A stretch of DNA of 64,000 nt from Eledone cirrhosa (taxonomy: Eukaryota): NCBI GenBank assembly GCA_964016885.1, contig OZ024745.1, forward strand, positions 31,434,001 to 31,498,000, read 5' to 3'. A program made the position numbers and the translations under genes. The notes under the pieces are model-generated. The model did no database searches. It was not told the origin of the DNA and saw only the letters and a program-made list of their open reading frames with translations. Positions 23,711 through 49,172 of the stretch are shown here, one piece after another; the stretch's first letter is position 1, and the number at the start of each line of letters is the position of its first letter.

Positions 23711-24966
23711 TGGAATGTGTGAAAATTTTCAATTTCTGCCATATGTGTACATATGCAAGAAGAGTGAAATTTTAGCAATTTTCATCCAACTTATGAAAGG
23801 TTCAGTCATGTTACTAATAGAATTTACAATTCATAAAATTTATAATTTTGAGTTGTTTTTATTTTATGTAAAAGATACAAATTTGACTTGTCATTATGTC
23901 TCTCTGTTGACCACTGGCTGCTGGTCTGTCCCCTGAAGCATTTTTGCACATCGCTGTCTTTGACAGCATTTAGCTGTTTTAACAGCTGTCCTAGCGATGA
24001 GGTTTCTCATTTTTATATGTATTCAAATATACTCTCGCTTCATCTCGATCAGAGACATTTTTTTTTTTTCATATATATAGTGTCAAGAGTTAGCTCAAGT
24101 TAAGTTTTATGATTTTATCACTAGAGATAGTGCCACCCAGCAATTAAAAAGGATGAAAAATACTGGTCTAATTCTTGACATTAATGTTTGACACAAATTA
24201 ACCCATTTGAAGGCTAGCATTTGATATTATCATGAACAAGATTTAGAATTAATATCTGTTTCACTTAATGTTTGGCATTAAGAAGCTCTTTTTGTGACTA
24301 TCACTGGCAATTTATTAACTGCCAATAATAATAAAGAAACCACTATTATTAAATGCAGCATAGTTACGTCCCTTTATGATCTGAGTGCAAATCCTGCCGA
24401 GGTTAACTTTGCCTTTCATCCTTACGGGGTCGATAAAATAAAGTACCAGTAATGCACTGAGATAATTGCTGGCCTTGTGCCAAAAGTAGAAGCAATTATT
24501 ATTATTATCATTTATCCTAACAGGTAAAGAAATATATACAAAACAGTTTATGTCACTTTTGTGGCAGCTAAGCCAATAATTATGAAGAAATTCGAATGGA
24601 ATAAGGCAAAATTTCGCATTTCCTTAACCCTTTTCATAGCAAACCACCAATCACCGTCTTATGAATAAAGTTCAGTCGATTGTTTGGTAACAAAAGTCAA
24701 ATTAGAAGATTTATTTACTTGGCGTATTCTTTTAACATGTGCTAGGATTCCAGAAATGACACCATATAAAGATAAACAAATATCTGGGCTTGTCCAGCCG
24801 CTTCCTTTTTGCACCGTTCGCCATCGAGATCTCAGGCGTCCTCGGACACCGTACAGCTAACCTCCATATTTCATTCACACTTTCTTACCAAGGGGATGTC
24901 ACTTCAAACCACATTGTTACAAAGTTAGTTCCCTTTACGCTTTATGGAGCATTGCTTTACATTGTT

Positions 24967-25271: not shown

Positions 25272-28200
25272 ATGGATGTAAAAGTGAAATCTTTAATTGA
25301 TTATGTTTCTGACTGTAAGGATGAAAAAGAATGCAAACAAAAACTCCAGAAAGCATTCGATCTAATTACGCAAATGGACCGATTACAGTTTACAACAGAT
25401 ATGCCGCAAGCAATATCAACCGACATGTTGATACAATTAGCAGACTTAGCTATAAAAAATAATCTTTATGATATTGGAGAAGAATGCATCAATCTGTTTT
25501 TTATGAGATCTAATGCAACTGACCTTCATAGGTGTGAAGCATACTTATATCTCGCTCAGTTATCCGCACCAACGAATATATTTGATGTTGCACGTTTGGA
25601 AAAGGCAAGTCAACATATTATAAGAGCACTCAACTTAGCTACTAAAAACCCCAATTTGCATCCTGAAATTTACAAAGCCTCGCTACTTTACTGGAAGTTA
25701 AGCCATCCATTTTTGCGCCCAGGTTTCTATCATCTTGTAGCAAGCGGATTCCAAAACATTGTTAGGGCTCTTACTGAAGTAAACAGCATTAACTATAACT
25801 GGAGAGCGCTACTATCCATAACATTGATTGAAATTTATAGTAAAACTGGCAGGAAAATTGAAGCTATGGAAATTGCTAAAACAGCAAATATTTTTATTAA
25901 AAAATTTGCACCAACTTTCTATAAAAGATTACTCGAACTGTTGATTCGTTATCAATTGGCCGATTCCATTGTCAACATGTGGGTAATTAAATCTTCGGTT
26001 GAGCTGTTTGCTTTTTATAGTATTGTGAAATTGAATTATAATAGTGATGTTAGAGATATTACTAGAGATATAACTAAAATAATGTTCTTGCTGAACATAA
26101 ACATACACGGTACTGATAACATAGGGCAATCTCAAGAATCAGTTGCGAGTTCTCAGTCACCTCGTGAAAGCAAGAAAAAATCTAGTTCCAAGGACTCTGC
26201 TGGGTATAAAGTTCGATTAACAGATAGTCCAGCACGACAATATCTGTTACTTGAGTTGACACGACTATGTCTCAAGAACAATTTACTACCATTAGCACAG
26301 ACATGTGTTACTACAGCTATGAATTCTTTAAAACATAAGGAAGCATATTATACTCAGTTGAAATTTGCAGAAAGTGAAATAATGGTAAAATCACTTGGTG
26401 ACAATGAAGAATCCTATAGTAGAAAATCAGTTGAAACTCGATTAAATGCAATAAAACTTTGTGAAGAAAACATTGCCATAGCTTGGAAACAGAATGATGC
26501 TTCTGCTGTACAGTGTGGATGTGTGACTTTATGGAATCTTTCTCTTCCATTATTGCAATCAAATTTACGTCATCATTTATGTAAACCTTTAACACTGGTT
26601 GCCCAGGCCCTTGAAGACATTCAGAGTTTATTTATTCAACTTCGATGCCAAGTTCATCGAGAATTGGCTTTGTGTGAAGAAAAGGAACATATACAAATTG
26701 CTATAAGCCACTTGAAGAAAGCAATTGTTTTAGATGGTTCAAAAGTGTATCATAATCAACTGTCTTGGAAATTGAACTACTTAACATTAGTATCAGAACT
26801 GTATATGAAACCAGACAGCCCAGAGGATATTGCTGGAAAGATCATTGAAGAGGCTCGAAAAGTGAAACCACTTGGAACAAAGGAAGGAATGCGAGCTCTT
26901 CTCATAAAAGCAGGAACCACATTATCACCAGATGCATTCCTAACAGTTATTGATAGTGAAAGTTTGTTTTGTGAAAATGTCAAAATTTTGCCAAATATGA
27001 CATATCAGCTTGCTGATCGTGTTCAAAAATATAATGCTCATATTAAAAAAATTGATGGCCATTTACTTACAGTTGAAGATAAACAGGACCAAATACGTAT
27101 GCATCTCTGGGCAGACTTATCAAAGGTTGCTCGGAAACATGGTGTTTGGGATGTATGTCGTACAGCAGCCATGTTTTGTCTCCTCTATGATGACAATCGG
27201 TGGTCCACTACATGCAAAGATAAAGATACTTTTATTACTTCAACAGAATGCAATTCATTTGATAATACATTTAAATCTGATGAAAATGTTGAAGAAATTT
27301 CAGTTTCAAAAAAGAAAAAAGTTGTCAGTGAAAAATTGCCTCTCAGTGACCTAGAGCATGTTCGTCTTTTAGCAGAGATCAACTTTATACAAGGAGAAGC
27401 TTGTTTAAAATTGCTTTACCAAGAAAATGTAAAACTAAATGATTTACCAGTTTATCCTCAAGATTATAGCAAACATGGTAAACATTATGAAACAACTAAT
27501 CCAGCTGAAGATAAAGACTGGCAGATATACTGTCAGTGGATTCAACAGATGAATAACAAAATTACCTCAAGTTTTCTTCGAGGTCTTATTTATGGATGCA
27601 ACTTGAATGAAAGTTATATTGTTGGCAATGCTGCTACATATCTTTGGAATTATAATCTCCATATCATTGAACAAAACCGTCAATCTGAAATTGTTGGTTG
27701 TCTTACAACTGTTTTAGAAAGTATTCAAAAAGTTGATTTTAGTGAATTTGTTATCTTGCTTATGAATATCTGTATAAATTTAGCTACAGGACTTATGATG
27801 CCATGGATGCCTGCAATTCCAGATAAAACTTCTGAATTACAAACTACATATCTGGAAAAAACTAATACACAAAAGAATCAACCAAAATCTATGCCGATAC
27901 TTATTTCCACTCAAGCCGCTCCTGATCTGAAAAGAGCCATTGAAATTTGTGAGTATGCTATTGAGATTACCAATAGGAAAAAGTATATTGGTTCCATACC
28001 TTTGTCAATAAAAGTTGCACTGTTCAAAACTTGGGTCATTGCCAAGCAAATGTCTCTGCAACAGATTTATAGGAGCGTGCCTAAGGATGATGATTACGAA
28101 AAACAAACATCACAAATTATTGTTGATTTAGAAATGTATACTTATACAAAAAATGGAGTTATGGAATTCAAAGATTTATTGCCATTATCAAATTTAGTTT

Positions 28201-31200
28201 CTGTTATGTTGAAACATCAATGGAAAGATGCTTTGATTAAACTCCAGCTTTGTACACGTTTGGCTGAAATTCTCTATAACAATAAACATTATGATTTAGT
28301 GGTAAAACTTGCAAAAGCGGTAACAAAGTCTTATATGGATCCATCATTATTCAGTTGTGAAAAGGAGAAGAATTGGAAAAGCATAGATAAAAACCACATA
28401 CAAGAAAAAGTTAGTTATTTGTTTCTATTGATGGGCCAATGTTTGACTGAAAATATGGAAGGACAAGCTGTTAGATGGGAAGCTATAAATAATTTTATAA
28501 AAGCTGCTGAATATTCTGTTCCTTCCCATAATTATACGATTCTGATGAAAGCTACTAGAAATTATTGGAATTCAATTCAACCTTTGATTAATATTTGCTC
28601 TGAAAGAAAATCTCTGAAAGCTTCTCTTCAAGAAATTCTTTCTTATATATCCAAAGTCACAAATAAAATCAAAGAACTACTCAATGTGGAAAAAATTGCT
28701 TCCTATGTATCTGAACTTAATCGAATCACATTGTATGGCTATGTTGGAAAAAGCTGGGAGAGTGAACCTATTGTAACTAATGATGATGATGACCAGAAAC
28801 TCCAGATTTCTTTATATAATGTCTTATGTGATTGTTTTGAAGACAGCAATAATTATGAAATGATTATTAAAACCCTCAATACAGCTATATCAAACTTGCC
28901 ACAAAGTTGTCATAAAATTCAGTTGTACAGACGAAGAATTGTGGTCAAAGCAAAATTAGGGGAAAATATGTTAATGGATCTCCAAAAGTTTCGAGAAAAA
29001 GAAGAATTTGTTGCCATTTTGTGGCGAGACATAGCATTACACAGCAATAACTTATCAGAACAATGTATTGCATACCAAAATGCAATTGAAAGTTTGTCAA
29101 GTGTGGAATATAGTTGGCAGAAAATTGATTATCTCCTTGAATTCAGTCAGTGGCTTTATACATACCAAATGCCAGAACAAATTGTTGTGGATCAAATAGA
29201 ATGGGCCATAGATATTCTTATGGGTATTGTTTCAGAAATTAACAAAGAAACATCTGTAAATCAAAAAATAGATTCTAAATTATCCTCTATGTCTTATCCT
29301 TTACCAAACATAGAAGAAAATACTCAACTAGATCAAGAACAGGCTGAAAATTCCAACATTAATGAAAATGACAGTCATGCTGATCCCCTAGAAAAAGAAA
29401 TTATTATTGGAGCTCCTCTTCATGATTGTACTACAGCTACAGAAAAAATGAATAATGTGAAACAGCTGAGTTATTTGATCAAATGTTATACTCTCTTATG
29501 TGAGATTTACACTCCTGCATCTCCTTTTTACATAAGATATTCACTTATGGCTTATTCATTTACAATCAGGTTGTGGCAAGTGTGTACTTCTGCTGCATTA
29601 ACTTGTTTTACAGAAATCGCTAAGACCCAAAGTGTGATTTTAAAAGACTTTTCACCCGTAAGCAAAACCAGTGAAGCATCAAAACAGAAAGTAAAAGAGA
29701 AGACTGAACACTGCTTTTCTCCAACAAAAGAAAAGAACAAAAAGAAATTCTTAAATGTCAATGTTTCATCTCTAACTTCGGAAGAATGGGCAGTATTTGA
29801 AGTACCATCTGATTTAGAGGAAATTTTCACCCATCCAAGTTTAGAGACTAGAGGAATTAATGAAAACACTATTAATGATCCAATGATGAGCTTGCATTAC
29901 CTAGATAAATTAGTAGCTAATCTTCAAAATATTGGTTCTTATCATTTAACTTTACCAGTATTAGCTTTGATGCATACTATAGCCTCATTTGCAGCACATT
30001 CTAAATCTTTTGTTCTCTACACGTATTGTAAAAGAATGGAAGTATGTGCTAAACTCAATTTGCCACAATGTTCTTCTTTTCATGAAAATGTTATTGATCA
30101 AACCTCTGGTATTGATTCTAATGAGGTGGTTGAAATAAAAGAGAAATTTCATGAATATATTCTAGAAAAGAATAGTTCCGAGAAACCAGACATAAAAAAA
30201 GAAAAAACATTTCATAAATGTCATTTAGGGCATTCTTTTCAAGATACCTATGTGTATCAAATTTGGACAAAGACTGCTGAAGCATTGATTGAGCAAACAC
30301 ACTATCAACTTGCCAGGAAATTTCTATGTGAAGCCTACGAATTTGCCACAAGTTTCAAAGATATATTCTACCAAGGGAAATTATGCTTCTTAAAAGCTAA
30401 ACTTGCTTTCTTTGAGGCTCAATACAAAGATGCTTTTGATTTATGTATGAAAGCTGAGGAAATCATGGTAGGTGATTTAGAATGTTGGTATGAAATAATA
30501 ATGTTAAAGGCAGATGCTGCTCTTCACACTTTTCCAAAAAATGGATGCCGTTTTGTTGAACAGTTTCTGCAAAGTATGATTAAAGAATTTGAAAACTTAT
30601 CTTTGACCAGACCAAACCAAACCATTGGTTGTGGTTTTACAATTGCTTTAATTCAAGCAAAAATTGGTGAAGTTCGGATTGAATACTTTATAAGCCAATA
30701 TAACAATCTTTCTTCTGATTGTGTACAAAAAGAATTTAGATCGTCATTTAAGTATTTTGATGATTCAGCTGAATTCCTTCTCAAGCATAAGTTTACAAAA
30801 GATGCCGTCAAAGTCATGCACAACCATGCCAAATTACTACATCGGATTGCTTTGACAACTACAAATGACACTAACACTTTGTGGTCATATTATCTAGAGT
30901 CCATAAAAGTCTTTACTCGTGCCATAATGCATGCTCGAGTTAATTTTTATGATGTAATGAGGATACTTCCTAAAGATATAAATTTAAGTTTGAGTTTACC
31001 TCTACATCGAGAATTTAGTAGCTTACAAAATAGCTGTGCTGAAGTTATGAGTGAGTTTCAAACTATTAAAACAAACAATGAAATTGAGAAAATACAAAGA
31101 AACCATCATGATATTGAAAGATTAAAACTAGAGAAAGAATTTATCTTTAAATCTCCTGATTATTTGGAAACTGAAAATAAATGGATAATGACCAAGCACT

Positions 31201-33494
31201 GGATTGCTAATGAAATTCTTTCTCTTGCAACTTCTGCACATAGTCTTGCTAGAACAATACCATGGATTAAATCTAGAAGTTTGCTTATAATTGGTAAATG
31301 TTTAGTAAATTTGTCATTCTTAGAACAAACATTCCCCTCTCAGGTTTGGTTTCAGTATAATGTAGAAGCAGATAAAGAGTCACTGGATAATGAAAACATA
31401 CAATCTGATGAAAACAGAGAGGGAAAAAATGTATTATCAACTAACTCAAATCAAACTTTAAATTTATTGAGGAAAATTTCAGAACTAAAATTGAAAGATG
31501 AAATTTCATTATGTTATTTTTGTCAAGCTACAGAATGTTTAACTCAAGCTTTAAATATTGCTTTTAATCTTAAACAAACAGATGTAATTATGCAGGCTTC
31601 ATATGAACTTATGAACGCTATTGGTCATTTGGATGCTATTACTTCATCTAATTTACTTGCTTTGTATCAAAGTTGTCAGGCATCTAGTTATTTAAATAAA
31701 TTGCTAGATATCAGTCAAGCAGACCCTTACAGTTGTCGTTTGGCAGCCCTTTTGCATCAAAGGAAACATCTGTTGAATAATTATATTGAGAGAAACTTCA
31801 TTTGCACTAATATTTTTTCTGCTGTAACAAATTCATTAGAAACAGATTGGCAAGCATGGAAAAATACATTGGTTTTATCAAATCATTTTGACATTGTCAA
31901 AGATTTCCCCAACAACTTCAACTTTATAATCCTCCAGCATTCTCCTGACAAATGTTCTCTATTTTGTAGTTTACTAGACAAACCCAAATTAACTAAAAGT
32001 GCTGCAGTCCTTAGGCAACAGACACCAAATACACCAGGAAATTTATTAAAACGATCTTCAATATGGAAATGCAAAGTTAATCCTGACAACTTAGATCAGC
32101 TTCTTAAAATGTTGAAGTTATATAAAGAAAACATTAGGCGTACTTTACTGAGAAAAAATTTTGAAGTGAAAAATCAGCCTGCATTCAAAGATACGTTTGA
32201 ATCTTTCAAATCCGATCCTGATTCTCCTAATGTATCAGAAAGTATTATATTTGATGATGAAGATTGGATGAAAGAAAAATTTGAAGAAATTGTTGCCTTG
32301 ATGGAAGATTACCTTGCACCTTTACTTAAGTCATTGCAAACAGTTTTTCAAAATATTTTTGCACCATTATTTTCAAATATATCCATTAAAGACATATCCA
32401 TGAAAGACAATTCAGAGCATTCTTTCATTATAATTTTAGCTGATCCTGATTTACTTGAACTTCCTCTAGAGTCTTTAAATTTGTTTCGTGAATATGAACA
32501 TATGTCTGTGACTCGAGACATTTCTTTGCAATTTCTTTACCATAGATTCCACCAAGAGGAACTACTTATTGAAGAAACTAAAGAGAAAAAACATAGAGAT
32601 AAAAAAAGCCATGCAAAGACTTCCCGTTTACTAGCGTATAAAGATCTTACCAAGAAACGGAAACGAGAACCAACTGATCATGTAACACCACCATGGGGTC
32701 TGTCTGTTGATACAGATTCAATAAAATACATTGTGGATGCCAACTATGAATTTAATGAATCTGAGAAATATGACTACTGCAAGGTTTTTAAATCTCTATT
32801 GACAAAATATGAACACCAATATACTTCCAATTGGAGTGGTTTGTGTGGAGATATTAGAAATGCAAGTAGTGGAGAATTGGAGATTTATCTAAATGGAAGT
32901 GGATCTTTCATTTTCTTTGCTCCTTACAAACTAACATCTTATTTAAATCCATCCAAAATTCCTACTTTTAATCTTGCAAAATGTGTGCTAGTATGCCAAT
33001 TTGATTTGAGTGAAAACTGTTTGAGCTATAAACACCAATCTCACCATGATGCTTTAAAATCAGGACAAGTTTCTTCTTTGGAAAATCCAGTAACAACAGC
33101 ATTACTTCTGAGCCTAGCAGGAGTACGCTGTATAATGAGTAATCAATGGGCAAGTCAACTCAGTGACAACATAAATCTGTTGAAAACATCCATGAAATAC
33201 TTACTATCTTGTGGACTTTCTACTGGGGAAACAATTCGGTATATTCATGCACCATATTTGAAATCAGATACAAAGACCAGCACAGAGGAGTATGTTAACA
33301 AACAAGAAAAAAAGATTAATAAAAAACCTCCAAAAACTGAAAAGAGAAAGGATGTGAGCGTAAGTGTAATAGCTAGTAATACATCCGTAAGTCAAAAAAA
33401 GTCCTCTATAATGATTGATCTTAAAGAGCTAAATCCTAATTGCTTTAACACAGTTTGTTATGGATTACCAAATGTATTTGTGTCACAGATTTAA
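25272..33494 (+). CDS. CFAP46: Cilia- and flagella-associated protein 46 (TTC40), single coding exon, 2740 aa
   Basis: Uninterrupted ORF. N-terminus MDVKVKSLI..KLQKAFDLI..IYKASLLYWKLSHPFLRPGFYH, internal CVTLWNLSLPLLQSNLRHHL and HGVWDVCRTAAMFCLLYDD, and C-terminal IILADPDLLELPLESL..VTRDISLQ..LAGVRCIMSNQW..VCYGLP match CFAP46 as recalled. The ATG at 25272 aligns with the orthologue start. Confidence 0.92.
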   Translation: MDVKVKSLIDYVSDCKDEKECKQKLQKAFDLITQMDRLQFTTDMPQAISTDMLIQLADLAIKNNLYDIGEECINLFFMRSNATDLHRCEAYLYLAQLSAPTNIFDVARLEKASQHIIRALNLATKNPNLHPEIYKASLLYWKLSHPFLRPGFYHLVASGFQNIVRALTEVNSINYNWRALLSITLIEIYSKTGRKIEAMEIAKTANIFIKKFAPTFYKRLLELLIRYQLADSIVNMWVIKSSVELFAFYSIVKLNYNSDVRDITRDITKIMFLLNINIHGTDNIGQSQESVASSQSPRESKKKSSSKDSAGYKVRLTDSPARQYLLLELTRLCLKNNLLPLAQTCVTTAMNSLKHKEAYYTQLKFAESEIMVKSLGDNEESYSRKSVETRLNAIKLCEENIAIAWKQNDASAVQCGCVTLWNLSLPLLQSNLRHHLCKPLTLVAQALEDIQSLFIQLRCQVHRELALCEEKEHIQIAISHLKKAIVLDGSKVYHNQLSWKLNYLTLVSELYMKPDSPEDIAGKIIEEARKVKPLGTKEGMRALLIKAGTTLSPDAFLTVIDSESLFCENVKILPNMTYQLADRVQKYNAHIKKIDGHLLTVEDKQDQIRMHLWADLSKVARKHGVWDVCRTAAMFCLLYDDNRWSTTCKDKDTFITSTECNSFDNTFKSDENVEEISVSKKKKVVSEKLPLSDLEHVRLLAEINFIQGEACLKLLYQENVKLNDLPVYPQDYSKHGKHYETTNPAEDKDWQIYCQWIQQMNNKITSSFLRGLIYGCNLNESYIVGNAATYLWNYNLHIIEQNRQSEIVGCLTTVLESIQKVDFSEFVILLMNICINLATGLMMPWMPAIPDKTSELQTTYLEKTNTQKNQPKSMPILISTQAAPDLKRAIEICEYAIEITNRKKYIGSIPLSIKVALFKTWVIAKQMSLQQIYRSVPKDDDYEKQTSQIIVDLEMYTYTKNGVMEFKDLLPLSNLVSVMLKHQWKDALIKLQLCTRLAEILYNNKHYDLVVKLAKAVTKSYMDPSLFSCEKEKNWKSIDKNHIQEKVSYLFLLMGQCLTENMEGQAVRWEAINNFIKAAEYSVPSHNYTILMKATRNYWNSIQPLINICSERKSLKASLQEILSYISKVTNKIKELLNVEKIASYVSELNRITLYGYVGKSWESEPIVTNDDDDQKLQISLYNVLCDCFEDSNNYEMIIKTLNTAISNLPQSCHKIQLYRRRIVVKAKLGENMLMDLQKFREKEEFVAILWRDIALHSNNLSEQCIAYQNAIESLSSVEYSWQKIDYLLEFSQWLYTYQMPEQIVVDQIEWAIDILMGIVSEINKETSVNQKIDSKLSSMSYPLPNIEENTQLDQEQAENSNINENDSHADPLEKEIIIGAPLHDCTTATEKMNNVKQLSYLIKCYTLLCEIYTPASPFYIRYSLMAYSFTIRLWQVCTSAALTCFTEIAKTQSVILKDFSPVSKTSEASKQKVKEKTEHCFSPTKEKNKKKFLNVNVSSLTSEEWAVFEVPSDLEEIFTHPSLETRGINENTINDPMMSLHYLDKLVANLQNIGSYHLTLPVLALMHTIASFAAHSKSFVLYTYCKRMEVCAKLNLPQCSSFHENVIDQTSGIDSNEVVEIKEKFHEYILEKNSSEKPDIKKEKTFHKCHLGHSFQDTYVYQIWTKTAEALIEQTHYQLARKFLCEAYEFATSFKDIFYQGKLCFLKAKLAFFEAQYKDAFDLCMKAEEIMVGDLECWYEIIMLKADAALHTFPKNGCRFVEQFLQSMIKEFENLSLTRPNQTIGCGFTIALIQAKIGEVRIEYFISQYNNLSSDCVQKEFRSSFKYFDDSAEFLLKHKFTKDAVKVMHNHAKLLHRIALTTTNDTNTLWSYYLESIKVFTRAIMHARVNFYDVMRILPKDINLSLSLPLHREFSSLQNSCAEVMSEFQTIKTNNEIEKIQRNHHDIERLKLEKEFIFKSPDYLETENKWIMTKHWIANEILSLATSAHSLARTIPWIKSRSLLIIGKCLVNLSFLEQTFPSQVWFQYNVEADKESLDNENIQSDENREGKNVLSTNSNQTLNLLRKISELKLKDEISLCYFCQATECLTQALNIAFNLKQTDVIMQASYELMNAIGHLDAITSSNLLALYQSCQASSYLNKLLDISQADPYSCRLAALLHQRKHLLNNYIERNFICTNIFSAVTNSLETDWQAWKNTLVLSNHFDIVKDFPNNFNFIILQHSPDKCSLFCSLLDKPKLTKSAAVLRQQTPNTPGNLLKRSSIWKCKVNPDNLDQLLKMLKLYKENIRRTLLRKNFEVKNQPAFKDTFESFKSDPDSPNVSESIIFDDEDWMKEKFEEIVALMEDYLAPLLKSLQTVFQNIFAPLFSNISIKDISMKDNSEHSFIIILADPDLLELPLESLNLFREYEHMSVTRDISLQFLYHRFHQEELLIEETKEKKHRDKKSHAKTSRLLAYKDLTKKRKREPTDHVTPPWGLSVDTDSIKYIVDANYEFNESEKYDYCKVFKSLLTKYEHQYTSNWSGLCGDIRNASSGELEIYLNGSGSFIFFAPYKLTSYLNPSKIPTFNLAKCVLVCQFDLSENCLSYKHQSHHDALKSGQVSSLENPVTTALLLSLAGVRCIMSNQWASQLSDNINLLKTSMKYLLSCGLSTGETIRYIHAPYLKSDTKTSTEEYVNKQEKKINKKPPKTEKRKDVSVSVIASNTSVSQKKSSIMIDLKELNPNCFNTVCYGLPNVFVSQI

Positions 33495-33754
33495 CCCTTT
33501 TGTTACCATATTTCTAATTAAAGATAGTGGCTATTGCTTACAAATTATTTGGAAAATAATCAAGAATTTGGAGGGATTCAGTGATATAACCAATTTTCTC
33601 ATTATTAAACTGATGTTTGGAGTATAGCTTAACAAAGGTTCTCCAAATAAAATTATGATGGAAGATATTTAGATTTTTTGAACACTGAAGAATAAACAAC
33701 TTAGTATTGTAGAACCAGGAGCAGTTTCAGGCAGTTTGGTAAAGAAAGGGTTAA
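33491..33754. mobile_element. piggyBac-type MITE with TTAA target duplication overlapping the CFAP46 stop codon
   Basis: TTAA-CCCTTTTGTTACC ... GGTAAAGAAAGGG-TTAA; related copy at ~8794-9048. Confidence 0.75.
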
Positions 33755-37242: not shown

Positions 37243-37300
37243 ATGCCTAAAGTTAAATCTGAAAAGAAGTTTCGAAAACATGAGGATATTCAAAAACAAG
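37243..37300 (+). CDS. DIMT1: 18S rRNA dimethyladenosine transferase DIMT1, exon 1 of 12
   Basis: MPKVKSEKKFRKHEDIQKQ-G; donor AAG|GCAAGT (GC-AG intron); phase 1 matches exon 2. Confidence 0.88.
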
Positions 37301-37784
37301 GCAAGTTTTATCAGGAACTGTATTTTCTTTTTCTCAAACCTCAATTGGATACAAATGTATTCTTAAGTTTATTATCATTTTATTTATGAAAAGTTTAAAT
37401 CTGTACATGTATTTGTAGTTAGGTAAGTTACTAATGATCTGTTACAATCTCATTAGCAATAGATCTTGATATAATACCAACATATTCCGCCTGATTCACT
37501 ACATTCTTTGCGTATACACCTTAGGATTTCCTTGTTCGCTCATGCGTGTCAACAAAGTATATATACATGCACATATGTACATACACACATTACATCTCAA
37601 ACCTGCCGGCGCTAAATGGTTTTGTGGGGCTTAAGCCCCTCGAATAATGTGGAAACTTGTTGAATGATCTTAAACTTTTGTTAGTTAAACATTTATATAT
37701 TACTTTTCAAAAAAGTAATAAGTACAACTAAACAATAGAAAGCGAGCTATTGCTATACTAAGATGATAAAAAGCGTGAACTATT

Positions 37785-38560
37785 AATAATTGTTTCTACT
37801 TTTTGGCACAAGGCCAGCATAACCCAGTACATTACTGGAACTTTATTTTATCGACCCCATAAGGATGAAAGTCAAAGTTAACCTCGGCGGGATTTGAACT
37901 GAGAATGGCAAGGGCCATAACTATATGCTTCAAAGCATGGCGTCCGACCCTCTACCGATACTGCCAATTCACTAATAATAATTGTTTCTGCTTTAGGCAC
38001 AAGGCCAGCAAATGCCCAGTGCATTACTGGTACTTTATTTTATCGACCTCGTAAGGATGAAAGGCAAAGACAACCTCGGCGGGATTTGTATAGTATATAT
38101 ACTTAAGTCGCTCCAATCCCAAAACTGTAACGGAATCTATGCATCTATATATCATCTTGACGTGCTAGTTGCACAGATTGCCATGACTCTTCCTCTCCAT
38201 CCGTTTCGGTCGTCCATTGCTCGTTGCAGGTCCTCAAGATTGCACTTAGCATCCTCATATAGCTGTTTGATGTCAGGTCTGTAAGTTCTGCCCACATTAG
38301 AATACTCATGCTTTGGTGGTCTAAATATAAACATATGTATACATCACACACGTATACCAACTTCTAAAAACCCAAACGGGAAGTACCATGGAAAAAAGTG
38401 CCCCAAAACAAGGAGAAGTGAGGCAAAATGGGGAAATTTTACATAATTGTTTCTACCTTTGTCACAAGGCCAACAAATACCCAGTGCATTACTGGTACTT
38501 TATTTTATCGACTCCGTAAGGATGAAAGGCAAAGTTAACCTCGGCGGGATTTGAACTCAT
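37785..38560 (-). mobile_element. Three SINE copies/fragments plus an RTE 3' fragment in DIMT1 intron 1
   Basis: SINE core in reverse orientation at ~37790-37970, ~37980-38087 and ~38445-38560; RTE-like tail peptide DIKQLYEDAKCNLEDLQRAMDDRNGWR at 38152-38300. Confidence 0.8.
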
Positions 38561-38876
38561 GAAAGCTATACCCATTTTCACAATAGAAGATATCTTTCAT
38601 CCACCTCAAAGTGGGTGAGCGATCTCCCCGTCGGACGAAGAGAGTTGACAGGTCTGCGTACACACACGCATATTTCTGTGTGTGTTTGAAGATCTATACA
38701 TATGTTTATATTGTTTGATAACAATTAATGTTCAGATGCTAAGACAAATAAAACAAAAAACTATATTAGAATTGAAAGTGTTATCGTGTATCTAATCCTA
38801 GAAACAACATTAAACAACAAGCTTACAATACTTTTTTCAAAATATATTGATACTAAGGACATCAGAATGAATCAAG

Positions 38877-38948
38877 TTTTGGTTGTCTTTACCTTTTATA
38901 ATAATGTGTTTTTAAACACATTATTATAAAAGGTAAAGACAACCAAAA
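38877..38948. repeat. Perfect 35-bp palindrome with 2-nt spacer
   Basis: TTTTGGTTGTCTTTACCTTTTATAATAATGTGTTT-TT-AAACACATTATTATAAAAGGTAAAGACAACCAAAA. Confidence 0.95.
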
Positions 38949-39324
38949 TTATTGAAAAGAAAATTAAGATTATAACTCATCAATAAATATACGACGGCCG
39001 AAAAGTTCATAGGCTGACCAAGATACTCTCATGGAATGACTGAATGAAGTTTATTTTTCAACATAGTCCCTGGAAACAAAGCGGTTATTAAGAAGTGTTA
39101 GAGATAATGCATACAAGATTTCATGGCTCTAGCATCAATCCTTCATAGTCCACCTATGAACTTTTCAGTCCACCCGCGTAGAAGGATAAAAAGAAAATTC
39201 TAAAATGCTTGAAACTAAATTATCGAATTTCTTCTTATTTGGTAAATATTTTTATGAACCAAAAATTTGATGGCAAATTTTCAATTCAGTTTTTATATAG
39301 TTCTATAACTTTCTTCTCTTTCAG

Positions 39325-39398
39325 GAATTGCATTCAATAAAACTATTGGGCAGCATATTCTGAAGAATCCTCTTGTAGTAAAAACTATGGTAGAAAAG
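39325..39398 (+). CDS. DIMT1: DIMT1 exon 2
   Basis: (G)IAFNKTIGQHILKNPLVVKTMVEK; AG/GT boundaries. Confidence 0.95.
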
Positions 39399-39429
39399 GT
39401 AATGCATGAAAAATCTTCATCTTTGCTCA

Positions 39430-40100
39430 TCTTATTTCTGGGAGGGTTGTGAGAGCAAGATACTCCTCAAGCAAGCCTTTCTGCATTCTAATTGACCCAG
39501 CTGAATCCCCAAGTGAGACCAGCTGAGTTAATAGATGTTATCCAACCATCTTGCTTGGTGGTCTACCCCTGCCAGTTTATTTTGCTTCTAAAATCTGTTC
39601 AGTGATTCTTTTAGACATTCTGACCACATGTCCATAGCATCAGAGCTGTGATATCTCAATTCAAAGAAGTAGTGGCTCTACCTGGAGTGACTCTGATTTC
39701 TGAGCTATGCATTCTATCAAGTAACATTACTCCAAAGACCCTTCAGAGAAACCCCATTTTTTCATTAAATAGAGAAGGTATTCTCTGGCTGATTCGTGTG
39801 TGCTGGACGGCCTGAATTTCTGAAAAGGCACCTAAGCAATAGCAATTGGGAGTGATAATCCCAATTTTCACAAAGGGAGATAAGAGAGATTGCTCCAATT
39901 ATAGAGGGTTCTTGTTAAGCCTCTCCGGTGAAGTCTATGCTAAGTTTCTGACAAAGAGATGTAGGGATATTGTTGAGTCCATGCTAGCTGACATATCGTG
40001 GTTTTTGCCCCAGACTCAACATGGCTGACCAAATGTTCACACTGCAGTGGATCTTTGAGAAATTGTGGAAACATTGCTAAGAGGTGTATGCTATGCTTGT
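39430..40100. mobile_element. Degraded RTE LINE fragments in DIMT1 intron 2
   Basis: Plus-strand GVIIPIFTKGDKRDCSNYRG..LSLSGEVYAK (RT N-terminus) at 39846-40028; minus-strand 3' fragment at 39430-39760 homologous to 12090-12480. Confidence 0.75.
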
Positions 40101-40304
40101 TTCATGCAAAGTTAATTATATTAACTAAATCACTTCAAATTCTTCATTATTTTCAAAAGGTTTTGAAAATATTAGATACTGTCTTTCATTAGTAATATGG
40201 TAATGAAAGGCTTAAATTATAAAATAGCTTCATCTATTATTGCTTGTTTGATGCAATATAATTATGTTTATTTTGGTTGGGTTTTTTTGTCATTCCATTC
40301 ATAG

Positions 40305-40418
<114 letters not shown>

Positions 40419-40739
40419 TGAACTGATGTATGAAGAAACTACATTTCATGTCCCATTTTAATTGTACTGCATTGTGCCTGTGGCTAATGCATTTAACCTC
40501 CAACTGGCTTATTCCACTTAGTTCTAAATAGGCACCACATTTGGTCAAGCTCATAAAGCGAGTGGTGATTGGAAATGCATCCAACCATAAAAAAACCTGC
40601 AAAACAAGGAGCCAGGAAGACTTCTAGTGTGTCAAAGACATGACCCCTCCCTAGTGCTGGTGCCATAATAAAATGCTCTCTGCATGACATGGGAGCATAC
40701 ATGAGATTTGTTTCCACAATGGAGATTTGTTTCCTTGAT

Positions 40740-41080
40740 GGAGGCACATGGCTTAGTGGTTAGAGCATTGGGCTTGCAATCGAAAGGTTGTGAGTTCAAT
40801 TCTCAGACCGGGTGATGTGTTGTTTCCTTGAGCAAGACACTTTATTTCACATTGCTCCAGTTTACTCAGCTGTAGAAATGAGATGATAGGGACTGGGGTC
40901 CATATCATTCCACTGCAAAGTGGTCGTGTAGGTGCCACGGCAAAAAAGCACCCAGCACTCACTGTAAATGAGATTGGTGTTAGGAAGGGCATCCAGCTGT
41001 AGAAATCAAGCCAGAATCAGTTCCCATCCCACCCTTGGAAGCAGGGAAAAGCGGACGTAAAATGATGATGATGATGATGT
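40740..41080 (+). mobile_element. Full-length composite SINE (tRNA head, CORE-like domain, RTE tail)
   Basis: A box TGGCTTAGTGG, B box GAGTTCAATTC, then TCCTTGAGCAAGACACTTTATTTCAC, GTTAGGAAGGGCATCCAGCTGTAGAAA, and tail AAGCAGGGAAAAGCGGACGTAAA(ATG)n. Confidence 0.88.
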
Positions 41081-41256
41081 TTGAACCTGGGCAATACAAG
41101 CAATCATTTTACCCAGATTCATTTCTTTATATTTATTAATGCATTTATACATTTTTATGTATGTCCCTACTGTTACTGTGGCAAACATACTTCCAAATGT
41201 TTCTGTCATATGATGGGTAACACTCTAGTTTTTTAATATTACTAAATTTTCTTCAG

Positions 41257-41318
41257 GTCACCGCATGTGAAGTTGATCCCAGACTGGTGGCAGAATTACA
41301 AAAACGTATTCAAGGAAC
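41257..41318 (+). CDS. DIMT1: DIMT1 exon 4
   Basis: VTACEVDPRLVAELQKRIQG(T); AG/GT boundaries. Confidence 0.95.
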
Positions 41319-41663
41319 GTAAGTGATATCTTTTCATCTGTAAGGGCACATGTTCTGTCATTCTGTATTTACTTTTCTCCAATGACATCTCAGTTCTTAC
41401 CATTGCCTTACAATACTATTTTACAACCATGTCACCTTCTGTTTGACTGGAATTTCAACACTTTAGCATTTAAACCCGCTGTATCCGGTCAGAATTCTTT
41501 CACCTCTTTCTGTTCAAACCAGCCATAATTGGCCACTCATACTGATATTAGTGTATTGTTTTCAAAATAAATAATATGAAAATCTCATAGATTCGATATT
41601 ATGTGAGATATTGTGTAAAATAAAACCTTTACTGCGAAAATACAATAGTAAATATAGAGTAAT

Positions 41664-43611
41664 CATCATCATCATCATCATTTTACGTCCGCTTTTCCCT
41701 GCTTGCAAGGTTGGGACGAGTCCTATTCAGCACAGCATCTTTCCATTTGTCACGGTCCTTTGTCATCTCCTCAGTGAGCTTCAGCAATCTGAGGTCTGCT
41801 CTCACCACCTCCGCCCATATTTTTTGTGGTCTTCCTCTACTGCGTCTTCCTTCTACTGGCATTTCTTGGCACTTCTTTACCCAGCAATCATCCTCTATGC
41901 GCATCACATGTCCATACCATCGCAGTCTTCTCTGCCGCACACTACAACTTATCCCTCTTAAACACAGTTTCTCTCTCAACTCATCCATGCTCGGTCGTTC
42001 ATGTACATTGACATTGCAGATCCAACGGAGCATGCTTGCTTCATTTCTCTCCAACCGGCGCATATCCTCTGCAGTTGCTGCCTGTGTCTCACTACCATGT
42101 AGCATCGCACATAGGCATCATATAACCGGCCTTTCCTACGCAGGGAGAAACCCTTCTTTGTCAGCAGAGGAAGCAGCTCCCTAAACTTCTTCCAACCCAT
42201 CCTTATTCTAGATACTATGGCCTCGGAACACCCCTTCTCATGCTAATCTGATCACCTAGGTACCGGAAGCTATCAACCACTTCTATAGAACCTACCTGCA
42301 TTTGAAAAATGTGTCTATCAATGCGACTTTTACTGTCAAATTTCCCTGTACATCTATTGCATACATATTTTTCCCTACCTGTTAGTTTGCCTGCTATCCC
42401 ACTGCATTGTGTACATTTTATAGAATTTATGCCAGTTCCTTTTCTGCATATCAAACATGGCCATTCCACTGGCGGAATCAGAGTTTTGACCCCTTTTTCT
42501 ATTTATCAACACTTTTGTCTTAGCTAGGTTCATTCTCAGTCCTCTTAATTCCAACTGTTGTTTCCATAGCCAGAATTTATTCTCTAGCTCCTCTACTGAT
42601 TCTGCTATAAGAACCAGATCGTCAGCATAGAGAAGTTCCCATGGGCAGCCAGTCTTAAACTCCTCTGGCTTGAGGGACTATAATGAACAAGAGCAGGCTG
42701 AGAGCTGAACCCTGATGTACTCCTACTTGTGTCTGGAATTCCTCACTAAACTCCATTCTTACCCTCACTTTACTGACAGCACCTCTGTACAAAGCTTGCA
42801 CTGTCCTCACAAGCCATTCCTCAACACCTAGTTTCCTTAAGGACCACCAGATGACAGATCGGAGTACCCTATCAAAGGCTTTCTCTAGGTCAACAAAAGC
42901 TAAGTATAGTGGCTCATTCTTCTCTAAGAACCTCTCTTATAGTTGCCTCACTAAGAAGAGGGCATATGTTGTACATTTCCCAGGCACAAAACCAAACTGC
43001 ATCTCATCTAGTTTGACCCTTTCTCTAATTAGTTGCGCTAATATCCTTTCTGGCCACTTTCATAACCTGATCCATCAGTTTTATACCCCTATAATTGCTC
43101 CTCTCCAGAGCATCCCCTTTACCTTTGTAGCAATTTATGAGAATACTGCTGCACCAGTCTTTGGGTATGACTCCGCCATATATAGCTTGATTGATGATGC
43201 ATGCAACCAGCTTAGTGCCTACATCCCCTGATGCCTTCAGCATCTCAGCAACTATCCCCGATGGTCCAGCGGCCTTACCATTTTTCATTTCCTTAATTGC
43301 CTCTTGGACCCTATATTCGTTAATCTCAGTAGCTGGTCCCTCTGTCGGATCTACTGAGGGTAATTTCTCTCTCTCCCATTCGTTCTCCACATTCATTAGT
43401 CTCTCATAATGAAATTTCCAGGCCTCCTTTTTTGATGATTTGTGACACTAAGTACACCGGCATCATTCTGGACACAGTTATCTCCAACAACATCCTGATT
43501 TGCACTGACACACTGCTTTGCAATATGGAACACTGCACATCTCTGATCTTCCCGTCGCAGAACATTGGCAAACCTCCTACTCTCAGCCTCCCTGCATGCT
43601 AAGTACACCTA
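41664..43611 (-). mobile_element. RTE-clade LINE, 5'-truncated, inserted into a TTAA MITE (TSD AGTAAT)
   Basis: RT peptides MKNGKAAGPSGIVAEMLK..YKGKGDALERSNYRGIKL, GCPWELLYADDLVL and MLHGSET..RRLRWYGHVMR; (ATG)n 3' tail; AGTAAT at 41658-41663 and 43612-43617; multiple frameshifts. Confidence 0.92.
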
Positions 43612-44068
43612 AGTAATGTAAATGCTAAAAGGTTAAGGTATTGTTCTCAAAATAAATAATATAAAAATCTCATAGATTCGATATTATGTGAGATAAAGTG
43701 TTTACCATGAAAATACAATAGTAAATATAGAGTAATGTAAATCCTAAAGGGTTAACCAAGTCACTGGTCTTGTAAGAACTTCCAGTTACCCTCTATGTTA
43801 TAAGCATGGACAAATGGTGTTAAAATTATGATACCAATACATGAACATTTTTCATTTACTGAAAATTGAAATATAGATATTTACAGAAAATTTGCAAAAT
43901 TCAAATTCCCAACATTAGAGAAAAGTCTTCATGGAGTTAAACTGGGAGATTATTTTAGCAGTTTTGATAATTTTAATATTTAAAAAAGGAAAATAGCTGC
44001 CATCTTATACAGATAAATTTTAATAGTTGTAAAAAAAACCTGAATCTCTTCCCCAGCTTTAAACCTAA

Positions 44069-44233
<165 letters not shown>

Positions 44234-44528
44234 TAATATTCCATTATTATTCTACTACTAGTTTGAAGCACTGCCTCCGTGGAGTGAGTAGTCAATTATA
44301 TCAATCAGGTGTAACAGGAGGTAGGTACGGTGAAACAAAATATCACAAAGTATTTTTATTCAAAGCATAGATGCTGCCCCCCGCCCCATATATATGTATA
44401 TATATAGTATATATATATATGTATATGTATATGTATATATACATATATATAACGAAGGAGGTGTGGTAAAGAACCAGATGGACCATAACGCACCAGAGTA
44501 CTCAATACTTAGGGTAGTAGAGAGGGTA

Positions 44529-44661
44529 ATAGGAAAATGTTTGACCCAACGGCAGAACTCAAGCTATTTCGATGGCTATTTCTGGACTAAATTAGAATTT
44601 AGTCCAGAAATAGCCGTCAAAACTGCTTGAGCTCTGCCGTCCGGGTCGATCATTTTCCTAT
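44529..44661. repeat. Imperfect ~65-bp-arm hairpin (MITE-like, within TA repeats) in DIMT1 intron 5
   Basis: Central GGCTATTTCTGGACTAAATT-AG-AATTTAGTCCAGAAATAGCC; outer ATAGGAAAATG/CATTTTCCTAT and ACGGCAGA/TCTGCCGT. Confidence 0.9.
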
Positions 44662-44664
44662 ACA

Positions 44665-44697
<33 letters not shown>

Positions 44698-45613
44698 ATA
44701 AAGGAAATGCTGACTTAGACACAAGCCTGGGCTGGATGTTTTATGAAAGACCACAGTTGCCTCAGCATGCAAGTCTTCCTTCTCCACACCAATGTTGTCC
44801 AAGGAAAAAACAAAGGCTGATACAGCTTGGTACCAGTGTTTTTGTAACTCATTTTTACCAAAAACAGGTGAAAAAACATACAATGGCTGCAGAGAGATGA
44901 GATGATAGTTATATACTTCTTGGATATTATGTCACACGGTGGCAAAACCTGATAATCCCTACCCCACTCATAGCTAACACAGCGCACCAAGCCCTTTTAG
45001 TTTTCTGACACAGCTCATACAAAAGACCCATCCAAATGTACAAGCACTGTGATACTAAAGTAAACATGGAAAGACACCAGGAGCTAGTGTTAGCAATGAA
45101 ATGGAAACAATATAGGGTTTAAGATGGCCCTTCAGTTTGGTGGAGCATGTGACAACTTCTCTTTGGCTGGTATTGTGATAAAATGTACTCTGTAAAGTGT
45201 TAGTGTTAATGCTATGAACAAACACACCCAGCACACTGTAAAATGGTTATGATGCCATGAAAAAAATGTGCCCAAGTTACTCTGTAAAGTAGTTGGCATT
45301 AGGAAAAGCATCCAGCTGTTGAAACCATGCCAAATATAGAACATAGAGCAAGATGATCTCACTCCAACCTGTCTAGTCTTGGATCATGACAACCCATCCA
45401 ACCTTTGCCAGTGTGGAAAGCAGGCATAAAATGATGAAACTATGAGTAATGCCTCCTTTGCTCTTGCTCTTATTTGTTTATTAATCTATTAATGGACAAC
45501 AAATCCTTGTTCATTTCAGTTGTACTTGTCTGATAAGTGACTTGATCTGACACATGTTGAAACTTAAACAGTTTACATGGAAGGGTCATTTTAGCCATTT
45601 TAAAAATCAGAAA

Positions 45614-45767
45614 CCAGTCCCTATCATCTCATTTCTACAGCTGAGTAAACTGGAGCAATGTAAAATAAAGTGTCTTGCTCAAGGAAACAACACATCACCC
45701 GGTCTGAGAATTGAACTCACAACCTTTCGATTGCAAGGCCAATGCTCTAACCACTAAGCCATGTGCC
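45614..45767 (-). mobile_element. SINE head fragment, inverted near-identical copy of 40743-40896
   Basis: 154 bp, 2 mismatches on direct comparison. Confidence 0.9.
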
Positions 45768-46408
45768 ACCTTTATATATATCATTTATTTCTTAGTATTG
45801 AAATTTTCATTGTACTCTCTACCACCTGGTTGCTGACACAGTTCCACTGCAAATCCTTGTTCAGTTCTTGGCATTCATGCTTACCATATATACTTGAATA
45901 TAAGCTGACTGCACTATTTTATGTCTGAGAAATGGACAAAAATCCAAACCTTACTTATATAGAATTTGAAGTTGGTGAAAAATCATCAAAATATTGACCC
46001 CGAATATATACCCACCGGTCCTTCTACCATGAATTTTTGGTCATATTTCTTCACTTATATTCAAGTATATATAGTATATTCCTGAAATTTAAAACTTTCT
46101 TCCATAATTTCATATTTGCCTCATCTCTTTCGTAATATTCCCCCTCCATACACACTTAGTGTGTATATCATGACTCACACACTCTTCACTTTCCTATGTT
46201 TTGTACATTATTTTATGTACTATACATGCACTTTTGATGAGTTGTAGTGCACCTGAGCACTGTACACAATAATTTTCATTATTATTATTAATTACTGTTG
46301 ACTCTCAGTGGTCAATTAATCATTTAAGGAAAGTATTTTGAAGTTTTACAAAATTGCTTGCCTTTTGTGTATTTTAATTTACTTTATCTCCTATTATTCA
46401 CATTTTAG

Positions 46409-46458
46409 ATTTCATCACCATTTGTATTCAAACTGTTGTTACACAGACCTTTCTTTAG
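46409..46458 (+). CDS. DIMT1: DIMT1 exon 6
   Basis: ISSPFVFKLLLHRPFF(R); AG/GT boundaries. Confidence 0.95.
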
Positions 46459-46786
46459 GTGAGGAACTCTTTTCTTCATTTCTTTTCATTCATTTTACTC
46501 ATTTAATATTTTTTGTGATTATTTTTCTGTCTCTTGTCACTTTGTATTTGACATGGCTAGTGCAGGCAGTGTAAACTGAACTCCAGCAGTTCAACTGTGC
46601 ATAAGTCCACACCTTACTTAAACAAAAAACAAGTGTTAACATTGGAAGGGTATCCAGCTATAGAATTGTTTTGTACAATCCATGCCAGCATGAAAAAATT
46701 GATGATCATGTTGTGGGGTGGTGATCATCATCATAGGTCTTGCTTCTGAGAGAAAATAAGTAATCCCTTTATATTATTTTTCTTAA

Positions 46787-46942
<156 letters not shown>

Positions 46943-47734
46943 TAGCCCATCCTGTCTCTTTCTCACTCTCTCTGTTTGTTAATAAGTTTGAAGAGGATAG
47001 ACAATGCCCATTACCTTTTCAAAACCTTTTAGGATGTTGATAAGTGGGTATGGTTATAGCTCCGTTTGAGATTAATTTTTTGTGAAAAAGTTTGGAAGTT
47101 GCTGAAGAATGATGTTTTAGGGAATAAAGATGGGGGGAAATTTCTTAACTCTTAACATCCTGTAATGGTTTAGCCAAAAAATATCTAAAAACAGGCTTGT
47201 TAATTCAACTATTTATAGTATCTTTATTATTGAATAGATTGTTGTGAAAATGTGCAGTATTAGGATAAAGACTTTAATTTTTTCACATGATGCAATCTTG
47301 ATACTGGCAGGTGTAGGATCAGTCAGCTGGAATTTGTGGACGAAGTTGTACTACTTAACTCATAAGAAGGTGGTCGCCAACATGCACTTGATAGATTTGC
47401 TACTGAATCAAAAAATCAGTCCTGCAAAGACTGAGACACTCATTCTCTCAAGGAAGCCTGCACAGTGCACTCTACATGTGAGTGAAGTTCCACTGAAGCT
47501 GGTGGAAAAGTTCAAGTATCTTGGGGCAGTGTTGGTCTGAGCATAGAATTTCTATTTCTTTTCTTTTGTCTCTCAAATTCTGTTTCGAAAAACACAACTC
47601 TGTGTCTACATTTTACAATTTCAACTGATTTGTATTAATTTAAAAAATATACAAAATGATTGACTATTTGAAGTGAGCAATAACACAGGATGATATTACA
47701 AGAGATTGACATAATATATTATTATTATTATTAG

Positions 47735-48166
<432 letters not shown>

Positions 48167-48508
48167 TAATTTTCAAAATTATCAACAATTATGAGAGCTT
48201 TAATCAAATAAGAGACATTTAACATACGAGGGTCGGCTGAAAAGTTCATAGATAGACCAAGATACTCTCATGGAATGACCAAATGAGGTTTATTTTTCAA
48301 CATAGTTCCAGGAAAGAAACAATGCAGTTTTTAATAAGAAGAATTGAAATTAATGCATGCAAAATTTCACAGCTCTGACATCGCTCCTTCATAGTCAGTC
48401 TATGAACTTATTTCAACACTTTTATCGAAGCGGGGTGATGTTGAAAGATTTAAAGTTCTTTCCAGATTGATATTTTGATGATCATCTTTCTTTTTCTATT
48501 CATCAAAG

Positions 48509-48573
48509 GAATGGGATGCCATGATTAAAATCTGTTTTACTAGGAAGAACAAAACACTTGGTGCAGCATTCAA
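48509..48573 (+). CDS. DIMT1: DIMT1 exon 9
   Basis: EWDAMIKICFTRKNKTLGAAF(K); AG/GT boundaries. Confidence 0.95.
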
Positions 48574-49172
48574 GTAAGTAAAACCATAGTTTTCTTTAGT
48601 AAGGTAATGGTACTGGTGCCGCAACAAAAAGTATCCAGTCCACCCAGTACAGTAGGGGTACTGGTGCCACAACAAAAAGCACCCAGTCCACCCAGTAAGA
48701 TGGCAGTGCTGCTGTCACAAAAAAAAGCTTCCTGTGCATGCTGTAAAATGATTGTTGTTAGGAAGGGCTTCTGAGCCAAAAATGAAATGCATGAACAAGA
48801 TGTAGTCACCTGACCTGTCTAGCCTCATAACGTGACAGTCCATCTGACCCATGCAAGTATGACAAATAAATGTTAAAGTGATGATGATGACAGCACAAGG
48901 TGATGTGGGGATTGGAGGAGTATTGACACTTATCTCTTTTGATACCAAACCACTTGAAGATTCTCCTGGTTCTATGATACAAAACTTTATTTTTAAATGT
49001 TTATATTTATCTAAAAACCTTCCATCGTAATTTTATGTAAGAAACTTTGTTAAGTTATTTTCCAAACACCAGCTTAATTATGATTCAACTAGGGAGTATC
49101 CACATTTTATGGTTTACTTCATAGTCACATGATTGAAAACTTCTTAAAACTACTGAATTTTTTTATTTTCAG

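What the first reader, a model, noticed from the sequence alone, without database searches (positions are those of the whole stretch)
25272..33494. Giant, completely intronless CFAP46 among intron-rich neighbours
Seen: one 8,223-nt ORF covers CFAP46 from N- to C-terminus with no stop, frameshift or repeat insertion, whereas DIMT1 (12 exons) and WDR54 have short exons and TE-filled introns. Known: vertebrate CFAP46, a central-pair projection protein, has dozens of exons (over 50 in human, from memory). Inference: a full-length ~8-kb cDNA either retroposed here or replaced the parental locus by RT-mediated mass intron loss, and the intact ORF suggests purifying selection. Full-length retrocopies this large are rare. 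If other sperm/ciliary genes in this lineage show the same pattern, it would indicate a germline RT-driven intron purge.
Basis: partly seen in the sequence, partly recalled or inferred. Interest (0 to 1): 0.8.

Follow-up and report, generated by a model that had tools for sequence, protein, structure and literature searches.

The report
Giant intron-free cilium gene in octopods
In this octopus-group genome the only copy found of the cilium and sperm-tail gene CFAP46 is one unbroken 8.2-kb reading frame, whereas mussels, oysters and snails splice it; it likely arose when a reverse-transcribed mRNA replaced the original gene, and several other genes here are likewise intron-free.

Summary
Confirmed. 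25272-33494 is one 2,740-codon ORF encoding full-length CFAP46, 68% identical end to end to Octopus orthologs. It is genomic: a contig from a second species spans it plus about 590 bp upstream at about 93% identity with no intron-sized insertion. Two searches of the genome found no second copy. Bivalve and gastropod CFAP46 is spliced (internal isoform differences), so the intron-free state is derived. Neighbours DIMT1 (12 exons) and WDR54 are intron-rich.

Best reading: an old RNA-mediated whole-gene replacement, either an orphan retrogene (0.55) or cDNA recombination at the original locus (0.33). Synteny, which separates the two, could not be tested.

The proposed purge of ciliary introns is not supported: dynein heavy chains, HYDIN-family genes and the partner CFAP54 keep small exons. 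But CFAP46 is not alone. CFAP57 (four copies), two kinesin-2 genes, two tektins, WDR27 and housekeeping genes (UTP15, two WDR18, THOC6) are also single ORFs, at most about one locus in ten in the WD40 and kinesin scans. Whether those have introns in other molluscs was not tested. No dN/dS or expression data were obtained. A known process at an unusual size; not found in print.

The parts
25272..33494 (+). CFAP46 coding sequence, single exon, 2,740 aa
24967..24979 (+). RFX X-box-like site 293 bp upstream of the ATG; likely ciliary promoter element (inferred)
   Evidence: 2 matches in the window, 0.62 expected; 11 of 12 positions of the Drosophila consensus in PMC2375033, which warns that one X-box alone is not predictive
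24784..24867 (+). short fragment of a repeated non-LTR element, not the first exon of a head-to-head gene
   Evidence: matches the element piece at 17213-17635; multi-copy in the laid contigs; element class recalled
33517..33522 (+). candidate polyadenylation signal 23 nt after the stop; repeats begin shortly after; no poly(A) remnant
   Evidence: sequence; depth jump in the bin from 33452; function inferred
37243..51159 (+). DIMT1, 12 exons of 43-124 nt, introns with transposon remains
   Evidence: gene name recalled, family RrnaAD by Pfam
56545..60322 (-). WDR54, four small exons located; gene continues upstream

Best explanation
The only CFAP46 copy found in this genome is a single 8.2-kb coding exon, likely made when a LINE reverse transcriptase copied the full spliced mRNA in the germ line, the copy inserted at a new site and the multi-exon parent was later lost (an orphan retrogene). 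Shown: single ORF, no second copy found, same state in a second species, spliced orthologs in bivalves and gastropods, full-length conservation with Octopus. Inferred: reverse transcription, a new site, loss of the parent, RFX-driven expression from the upstream X-box, and an unchanged role as a C1d central-pair scaffold beside CFAP54. The event likely predates the split from Octopus, and it is likely the largest of a scattered set of such replacements in this lineage, not part of a purge aimed at ciliary genes.
For: Complete absence of introns over 8.2 kb beside intron-rich neighbours. No second copy with residues 344-643 (1 match of 7 candidates) or 2344-2676 (self plus one stop-ridden match at E 0.12, of 8 candidates), although the same search finds exon-sized pieces of other genes. 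Second species: 8,842-bp contig on 24681-33521, 608 mismatches, 64 gap letters (X4). Mytilus edulis isoforms differ at six internal in-frame sites; isoform labels reach X28 in Mytilus, X20 Ostrea, X18 Magallana, X7 Pomacea, X5 Biomphalaria and Haliotis against one protein in each of three Octopus species. The genome is rich in LINE remains and holds a frame-broken intron-free kinesin copy and duplicate intron-free WDR18 and kinesin-2 genes on different chromosomes, as retroposition would leave. PMC3548309 calls retroposition the most parsimonious cause where all introns are gone.
Against: No synteny test was possible, and a different location is part of the definition. No poly(A) remnant or target-site duplication, though age would erase them. 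An X-box at -293 fits a native promoter left in place at least as well. Retrocopies are often 5'-truncated (PMC5470649), so a full copy over 8 kb is a rare product. No dN/dS and no expression data.
Confidence: 0.55

Rival explanations
1. Loss in place: a full-length cDNA recombined with the original locus and replaced all coding introns at once or in a few steps, keeping the native promoter and neighbours.
For: No parent trace, as expected if the parent is the locus itself. X-box-like sites lie upstream of both CFAP46 and the intron-free WDR27. The RT model predicts joint loss of adjacent introns in germ-line genes (PMC3652778). From memory only, human WDR54 and CFAP46 lie in paralogous NK-cluster regions.
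Against: Known in-place losses involve a few adjacent introns, not every one. CFAP46's bird neighbours are ALDH18A1, TCTN3, NKX6-2 and INPP5A, and the one tectonic match here is on another chromosome; this is weak, because coleoid chromosomes are heavily reshuffled.
Confidence: 0.33
2. Ordinary retrocopy whose intron-bearing parent survives but lies in an assembly gap or was missed.
For: Only two regions of about 300 aa were searched, and only the best candidates are scored.
Against: Exon-sized pieces of CFAP54, HYDIN-family genes and dyneins are found by the same tool. Only one CFAP46 cluster per Octopus species appeared among the 120 listed hits.
Confidence: 0.07
3. Gradual independent loss of many introns, or a lineage-wide purge of introns from ciliary genes.
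For: Several ciliary genes are single ORFs here: CFAP57 in four copies, two kinesin-2 genes, two tektins, WDR27.
Against: Dynein_C: 63 matches, longest frame 260 aa. CFAP54: 4 matches, longest 165 aa. HYDIN-type Ig: 5 matches, longest 215 aa. Most fetched cases are all-or-none, and housekeeping genes are hit too.
Confidence: 0.04
4. Assembly artefact: a transcript assembled into the chromosome.
For: X1 may be the sample that the window was built from, and its kind is not on record.
Against: X1 contig of 9,033 bp runs from 24483, inside upstream repeats, to 33515 with 0 differences; X4, from another study and organism, spans 24681-33521.
Confidence: 0.01

Closest known systems
Retrogene replacement of amphioxus SYCP1 (PMC5803294; abstract and passages seen)
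   Same: Germ-line gene, multi-exon in most animals, present as one coding exon with the parent gone, shared across a genus.
   Different: SYCP1's exon is about 3.2 kb, this one 8.2 kb. SYCP1's new location and borrowed bidirectional promoter are shown; here location is untested and no head-to-head gene was found in about 35 kb upstream.
Human orphan retrogenes (PMC3548309; passages and section 14 seen)
   Same: Single-exon functional gene with no parent; the list of 25 includes a ciliary TPR gene (TTC30B) and ribosome-biogenesis genes (UTP3, IMP3, RRS1), the same classes seen here.
   Different: From memory none of the 25 approaches 2,700 aa. Their Ka/Ks was measured and location was used as a filter; neither was done here. 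The share of single-ORF genes in this genome looks higher, though from biased scans.
mRNA-mediated (RT) intron loss in place (PMC3652778; abstract and passages seen)
   Same: Reverse transcript of a germ-line mRNA removes adjacent introns precisely.
   Different: Reported cases remove a few introns; here none is left in 8.2 kb.
[quoted passage not shown]
   Same: Full-length ortholog; partner CFAP54 is present in this genome.
   Different: Gene structure only; no sign of a new protein function.

Membership tests
CFAP46 orthologs | End-to-end homology with CFAP46/FAP46 | tested here: met
Orphan retrogene (retrogene replacement) | No introns in the coding region | tested here: met
Orphan retrogene (retrogene replacement) | Orthologs in outgroups have coding introns | tested here: met
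   indirect: six internal isoform differences in Mytilus edulis, isoform series in six bivalve and gastropod clusters, human splice variant; exon counts not obtained
Orphan retrogene (retrogene replacement) | Parental multi-exon copy absent | tested here: met
   two regions searched, no second copy; about 630 of 2,740 aa were used as query
Orphan retrogene (retrogene replacement) | Genomic location differs from the ancestral locus | not testable with these tools
   no outgroup eukaryote genome reachable; too weak
Orphan retrogene (retrogene replacement) | Functional: purifying selection | tested here: inconclusive
   ORF intact and 68% identical to Octopus, 926 invariant columns among 7 likely cephalopod sequences; dN/dS not obtained (laid no X4 contig)
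Orphan retrogene (retrogene replacement) | Transcribed | tested here: inconclusive
   see Tried and rejected
Recent processed retrocopy | Poly(A) remnant and target-site duplication | tested here: not met
   expected to decay in an old copy
Ciliary-gene intron purge | Most large ciliary genes intron-free or intron-poor | tested here: not met

The most novel reading that the evidence does not exclude
Octopods, and perhaps all squid, cuttlefish and octopus, went through a period in which reverse-transcribed mRNAs replaced whole conserved genes at a far higher rate than in vertebrates, converting several percent of germ-line and ciliary genes (CFAP46, CFAP57, kinesin-2, WDR27, UTP15, WDR18, THOC6) to single exons in an otherwise intron-rich 3-Gb genome; CFAP46 would then be among the largest whole-gene RNA-mediated replacements on record.
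Probability: 0.35. Interest if true: 0.75.

Novelty: new member of a known kind. Interest (0 to 1): 0.5.

Why it matters
The size shows that an mRNA with over 8 kb of coding sequence can be copied whole and take over a conserved gene. If the wider pattern holds, cephalopods offer a set of all-or-none intron losses in which retroposition and loss in place can be told apart by synteny against Nautilus and bivalves, a long-open question, and it could be asked whether the events coincide with the coleoid chromosome reshuffle. It also removes alternative splicing from a gene that has 20 or more predicted isoforms in bivalves. The protein itself is ordinary.

Tried and rejected
Expression: no RNA holder listed. 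Run X5 (kind unknown) gave 3 short pieces on the ORF; its kind could not be settled, so it counts neither way. dN/dS: one search was meant to list X4's differences in the ORF but laid no X4 contig. Family tree: the script machine was lost, so P0005 and P0049 are placed by identity only. Metagenome scan: 305 pattern matches, none confirmed. Search for shorter homologs gave 16 hits, none a named cephalopod. PF14874 scan: 2 weak matches, uninformative. Tectonic as a synteny marker: 1 match, uninformative. The GC-rich stretch at 24.76-24.87 kb was considered as the first exon of a head-to-head gene and rejected as a repeat fragment. Direct repeats around the ORF are chance-level. Earlier findings: three look-ups, nothing returned. 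Literature: eight searches (top 7 to 30 listings seen in each) showed no report of intron-free CFAP46 or a survey of orphan retrogenes in cephalopods; subscription papers and all supplements (gene tables of cephalopod genome papers in particular) were not seen.

Full report
Observation. The window holds one long non-repetitive ORF, 25176-33494 on the + strand, with the first ATG at 25272 and 2,740 codons. It is CFAP46: Pfam TPR_CFAP46_N, PDB 9ijj_A at E 6.3e-279 and FAP46 7n6g at E 9.6e-13, and single end-to-end alignments at 68% to O. bimaculoides and O. sinensis, 41% to the unnamed P0005 and about 32-34% to most bivalve and gastropod proteins. The host is therefore an octopod some way from Octopus (inference). 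DIMT1 follows 3.7 kb downstream; I read 12 exons of 43-124 nt that join to 306 aa, and 3 of 5 tested hit RrnaAD. WDR54 lies on the minus strand beyond it. ORF lists for 3,000-24,700 and the 10 kb before the window showed only repeats and transposon remains; small exons could have been missed.

Is it real DNA? A 9,033-bp contig of run X1 covers 24483-33515 with no difference; X1 may be the source sample, so it is not independent. Run X4, from another study and organism and guessed to be DNA, has an 8,842-bp contig laid on 24681-33521 with 608 mismatches and 64 gap letters, about 93% identity and no intron-sized insertion. It includes about 590 bp upstream of the ATG. The mis-assembly explanation fails, and the state is shared by a second species.

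Is there a parent? Searches of the 3.0-Gb genome with residues 344-643 and 2344-2676 found only the locus itself, apart from one stop-ridden match at E 0.12. The same tool finds exon-sized pieces of other genes, so a living parent should have shown, but only about 630 of 2,740 residues were used.

Is it derived? No outgroup genome was reachable, so the evidence is indirect. RefSeq isoform labels reach X28 in Mytilus edulis, X20 in Ostrea, X18 in Magallana, X7 in Pomacea and X5 in Biomphalaria and Haliotis (at most 15 members listed per cluster). Three Mytilus isoforms differ at six internal in-frame sites, which requires coding introns. Human CFAP46 has a splice-acceptor variant at c.7286-2 (PMC11651342). 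Each of three Octopus species has one protein, consistent with but not proof of a single exon. P0005's cluster has 5 of 5 full-length members on contigs of 9.5-10.1 kb and is closer to octopods (41-42%) than to other molluscs (36-37%). It is likely a squid or cuttlefish and would push the event to the coleoid ancestor if those contigs are genomic, which I could not determine.

Promoter. An RFX X-box-like site lies 293 bp upstream (24967-24979); the window has 2 matches against 0.62 expected, so the count is not significant and only the position is suggestive. It fits 11 of 12 positions of the Drosophila consensus, and that paper warns that one X-box is not predictive (PMC2375033). The search motif was recalled. 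No poly(A) remnant or flanking duplication was seen.

Is there a purge of ciliary introns? No. Dynein_C gave 63 matches (70 candidates) at about 20 loci by hand count, longest open frame 260 aa. HYDIN-type Ig domains gave 5 matches, longest 215 aa. CFAP54, the C1d partner, gave 4 matches, longest 165 aa.

But CFAP46 is not alone. Tektins: 2 of 7 loci are single ORFs of 549 and 480 aa. WD40: 150 of 553 candidates were scored, about 85 loci by hand count; 11 had a frame of 300 aa or more and I fetched 10. Seven are whole genes in one ORF: CFAP57, 1,255 aa; WDR27, 942 aa; an F-box/WD40 gene, 912 aa (FBXW7 by recall); UTP15; two WDR18-like genes (the first confirmed); THOC6. The other three were a partial gene in a large exon, simple-repeat frames and a frame that breaks off mid-gene. 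A search with part of CFAP57 found three more copies in frames of 1,124-1,140 aa in tandem on the same chromosome and no exon-sized parent. Kinesins: 96 matches (122 of 172 candidates scored), about 40 loci; 4 carry the motor domain in one frame: two kinesin-2 genes 77% identical (KIF3A by recall), one further kinesin (KIF23 by recall) and one split over two frames. Unbroken domains score best, so 7 of about 85 and 4 of about 40 are upper bounds. Parent loss was tested only for CFAP46 and CFAP57, and introns in other molluscs only for CFAP46.

Mechanism. Total loss of introns in scattered genes, beside genes that keep theirs, points to reverse transcription of spliced germ-line mRNA (inferred). 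PMC3548309 treats retroposition as the most parsimonious cause in such cases, and dispersed duplicate intron-free genes plus a broken intron-free kinesin fit active retroposition here. I put retroposition with loss of the parent at 0.55 and recombination of a cDNA with the original locus at 0.33. The X-box and the lack of any parent trace fit the second equally well; published in-place losses are much smaller (PMC3652778). Synteny decides, and could not be run; coleoid genomes are heavily reshuffled (PMC9068888). Function is inferred from orthology: a C1d central-pair scaffold with CFAP54 and CFAP74 (PMC11651342). The gene is dispensable in some birds (PMC10445033), so its retention here is not automatic; the intact frame at 68% identity to Octopus indicates selection, but dN/dS was not obtained.

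Comparison and novelty. It works like retrogene replacement, known for amphioxus SYCP1 (one exon of about 3.2 kb, PMC5803294), 25 human genes and others (PMC8793726; PMC5470649). Membership is met for absence of introns, spliced outgroups and no parent found; location and transcription are open. Eight literature searches found no report of this case. Papers were seen as passages or named sections only, no supplements. Verdict: a real, unusually large new member of a known kind, with a lead to a wider pattern in octopods that needs a genome-wide ortholog survey. Interest 0.5.

Noticed in passing
L002:2598-6365 (G000 C21 15.23 Mb); L014, L015 (C21 14.71-14.73 Mb): CFAP57 is a single 1,255-aa ORF, with three more diverged single-ORF copies (43-46% identity) in tandem about 500 kb away and no exon-sized parent found.
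   Followed up: partly
L018:2137-4299 and L019:1452-3749: Two intron-free kinesin-2 (KIF3 family) genes on different chromosomes, 77% identical.
   Followed up: partly
L004:1433-4261: Intron-free WDR27, 942 aa, with X-box-like sites 128 and about 470 bp upstream of its ATG.
   Followed up: partly
L003:2892-5630: Intron-free F-box/WD40 gene of 912 aa with a long low-complexity N-terminus that begins with a helix-hairpin-helix-like stretch (by eye); possibly chimeric.
   Followed up: no
L005, L006, L007, L013, L020: Intron-free housekeeping genes: UTP15, two WDR18-like copies on different chromosomes, THOC6, and a kinesin resembling KIF23.
   Followed up: partly
L009:2095-3744 and L010:2382-3824: Two intron-free tektins, against five multi-exon tektin loci.
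   Followed up: partly
L021:2613-4248: Intron-free kinesin copy split over two overlapping frames, a likely processed pseudogene.
   Followed up: no
L022:1738-2991 (small contig C169): WD40 gene (PLRG1-like by recall) whose first part lies in one 417-aa frame and then breaks off; large exon or partly processed copy.
   Followed up: no
protein P0049 / P0142: A 2,828-aa CFAP46 called on unnamed contigs of 12.7 and 21.9 kb, 35-40% identical to most non-cephalopod sequences tested and only 29-31% to the window protein and P0005; may be an independent intron-free CFAP46 in another animal.
   Followed up: partly
protein P0154: 155-aa piece, 76% identical to P0005, on a 16-kb unnamed contig; exon, frameshifted piece or assembly error.
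   Followed up: partly
window 37243-37302: DIMT1's first intron has a GC donor.
   Followed up: no
window 34160-34280: About 45 bp present twice in inverted orientation just downstream of CFAP46 (seen by eye), a possible small inverted-repeat element.
   Followed up: no
window 5932-6291: ORF resembling a GIY-YIG endonuclease of a Penelope-type element (by recall).
   Followed up: no
G000 C19 6.75-6.76 Mb: Two identical-scoring dynein C-terminal regions in opposite orientation a few kb apart; recent duplication or assembly artefact.
   Followed up: no
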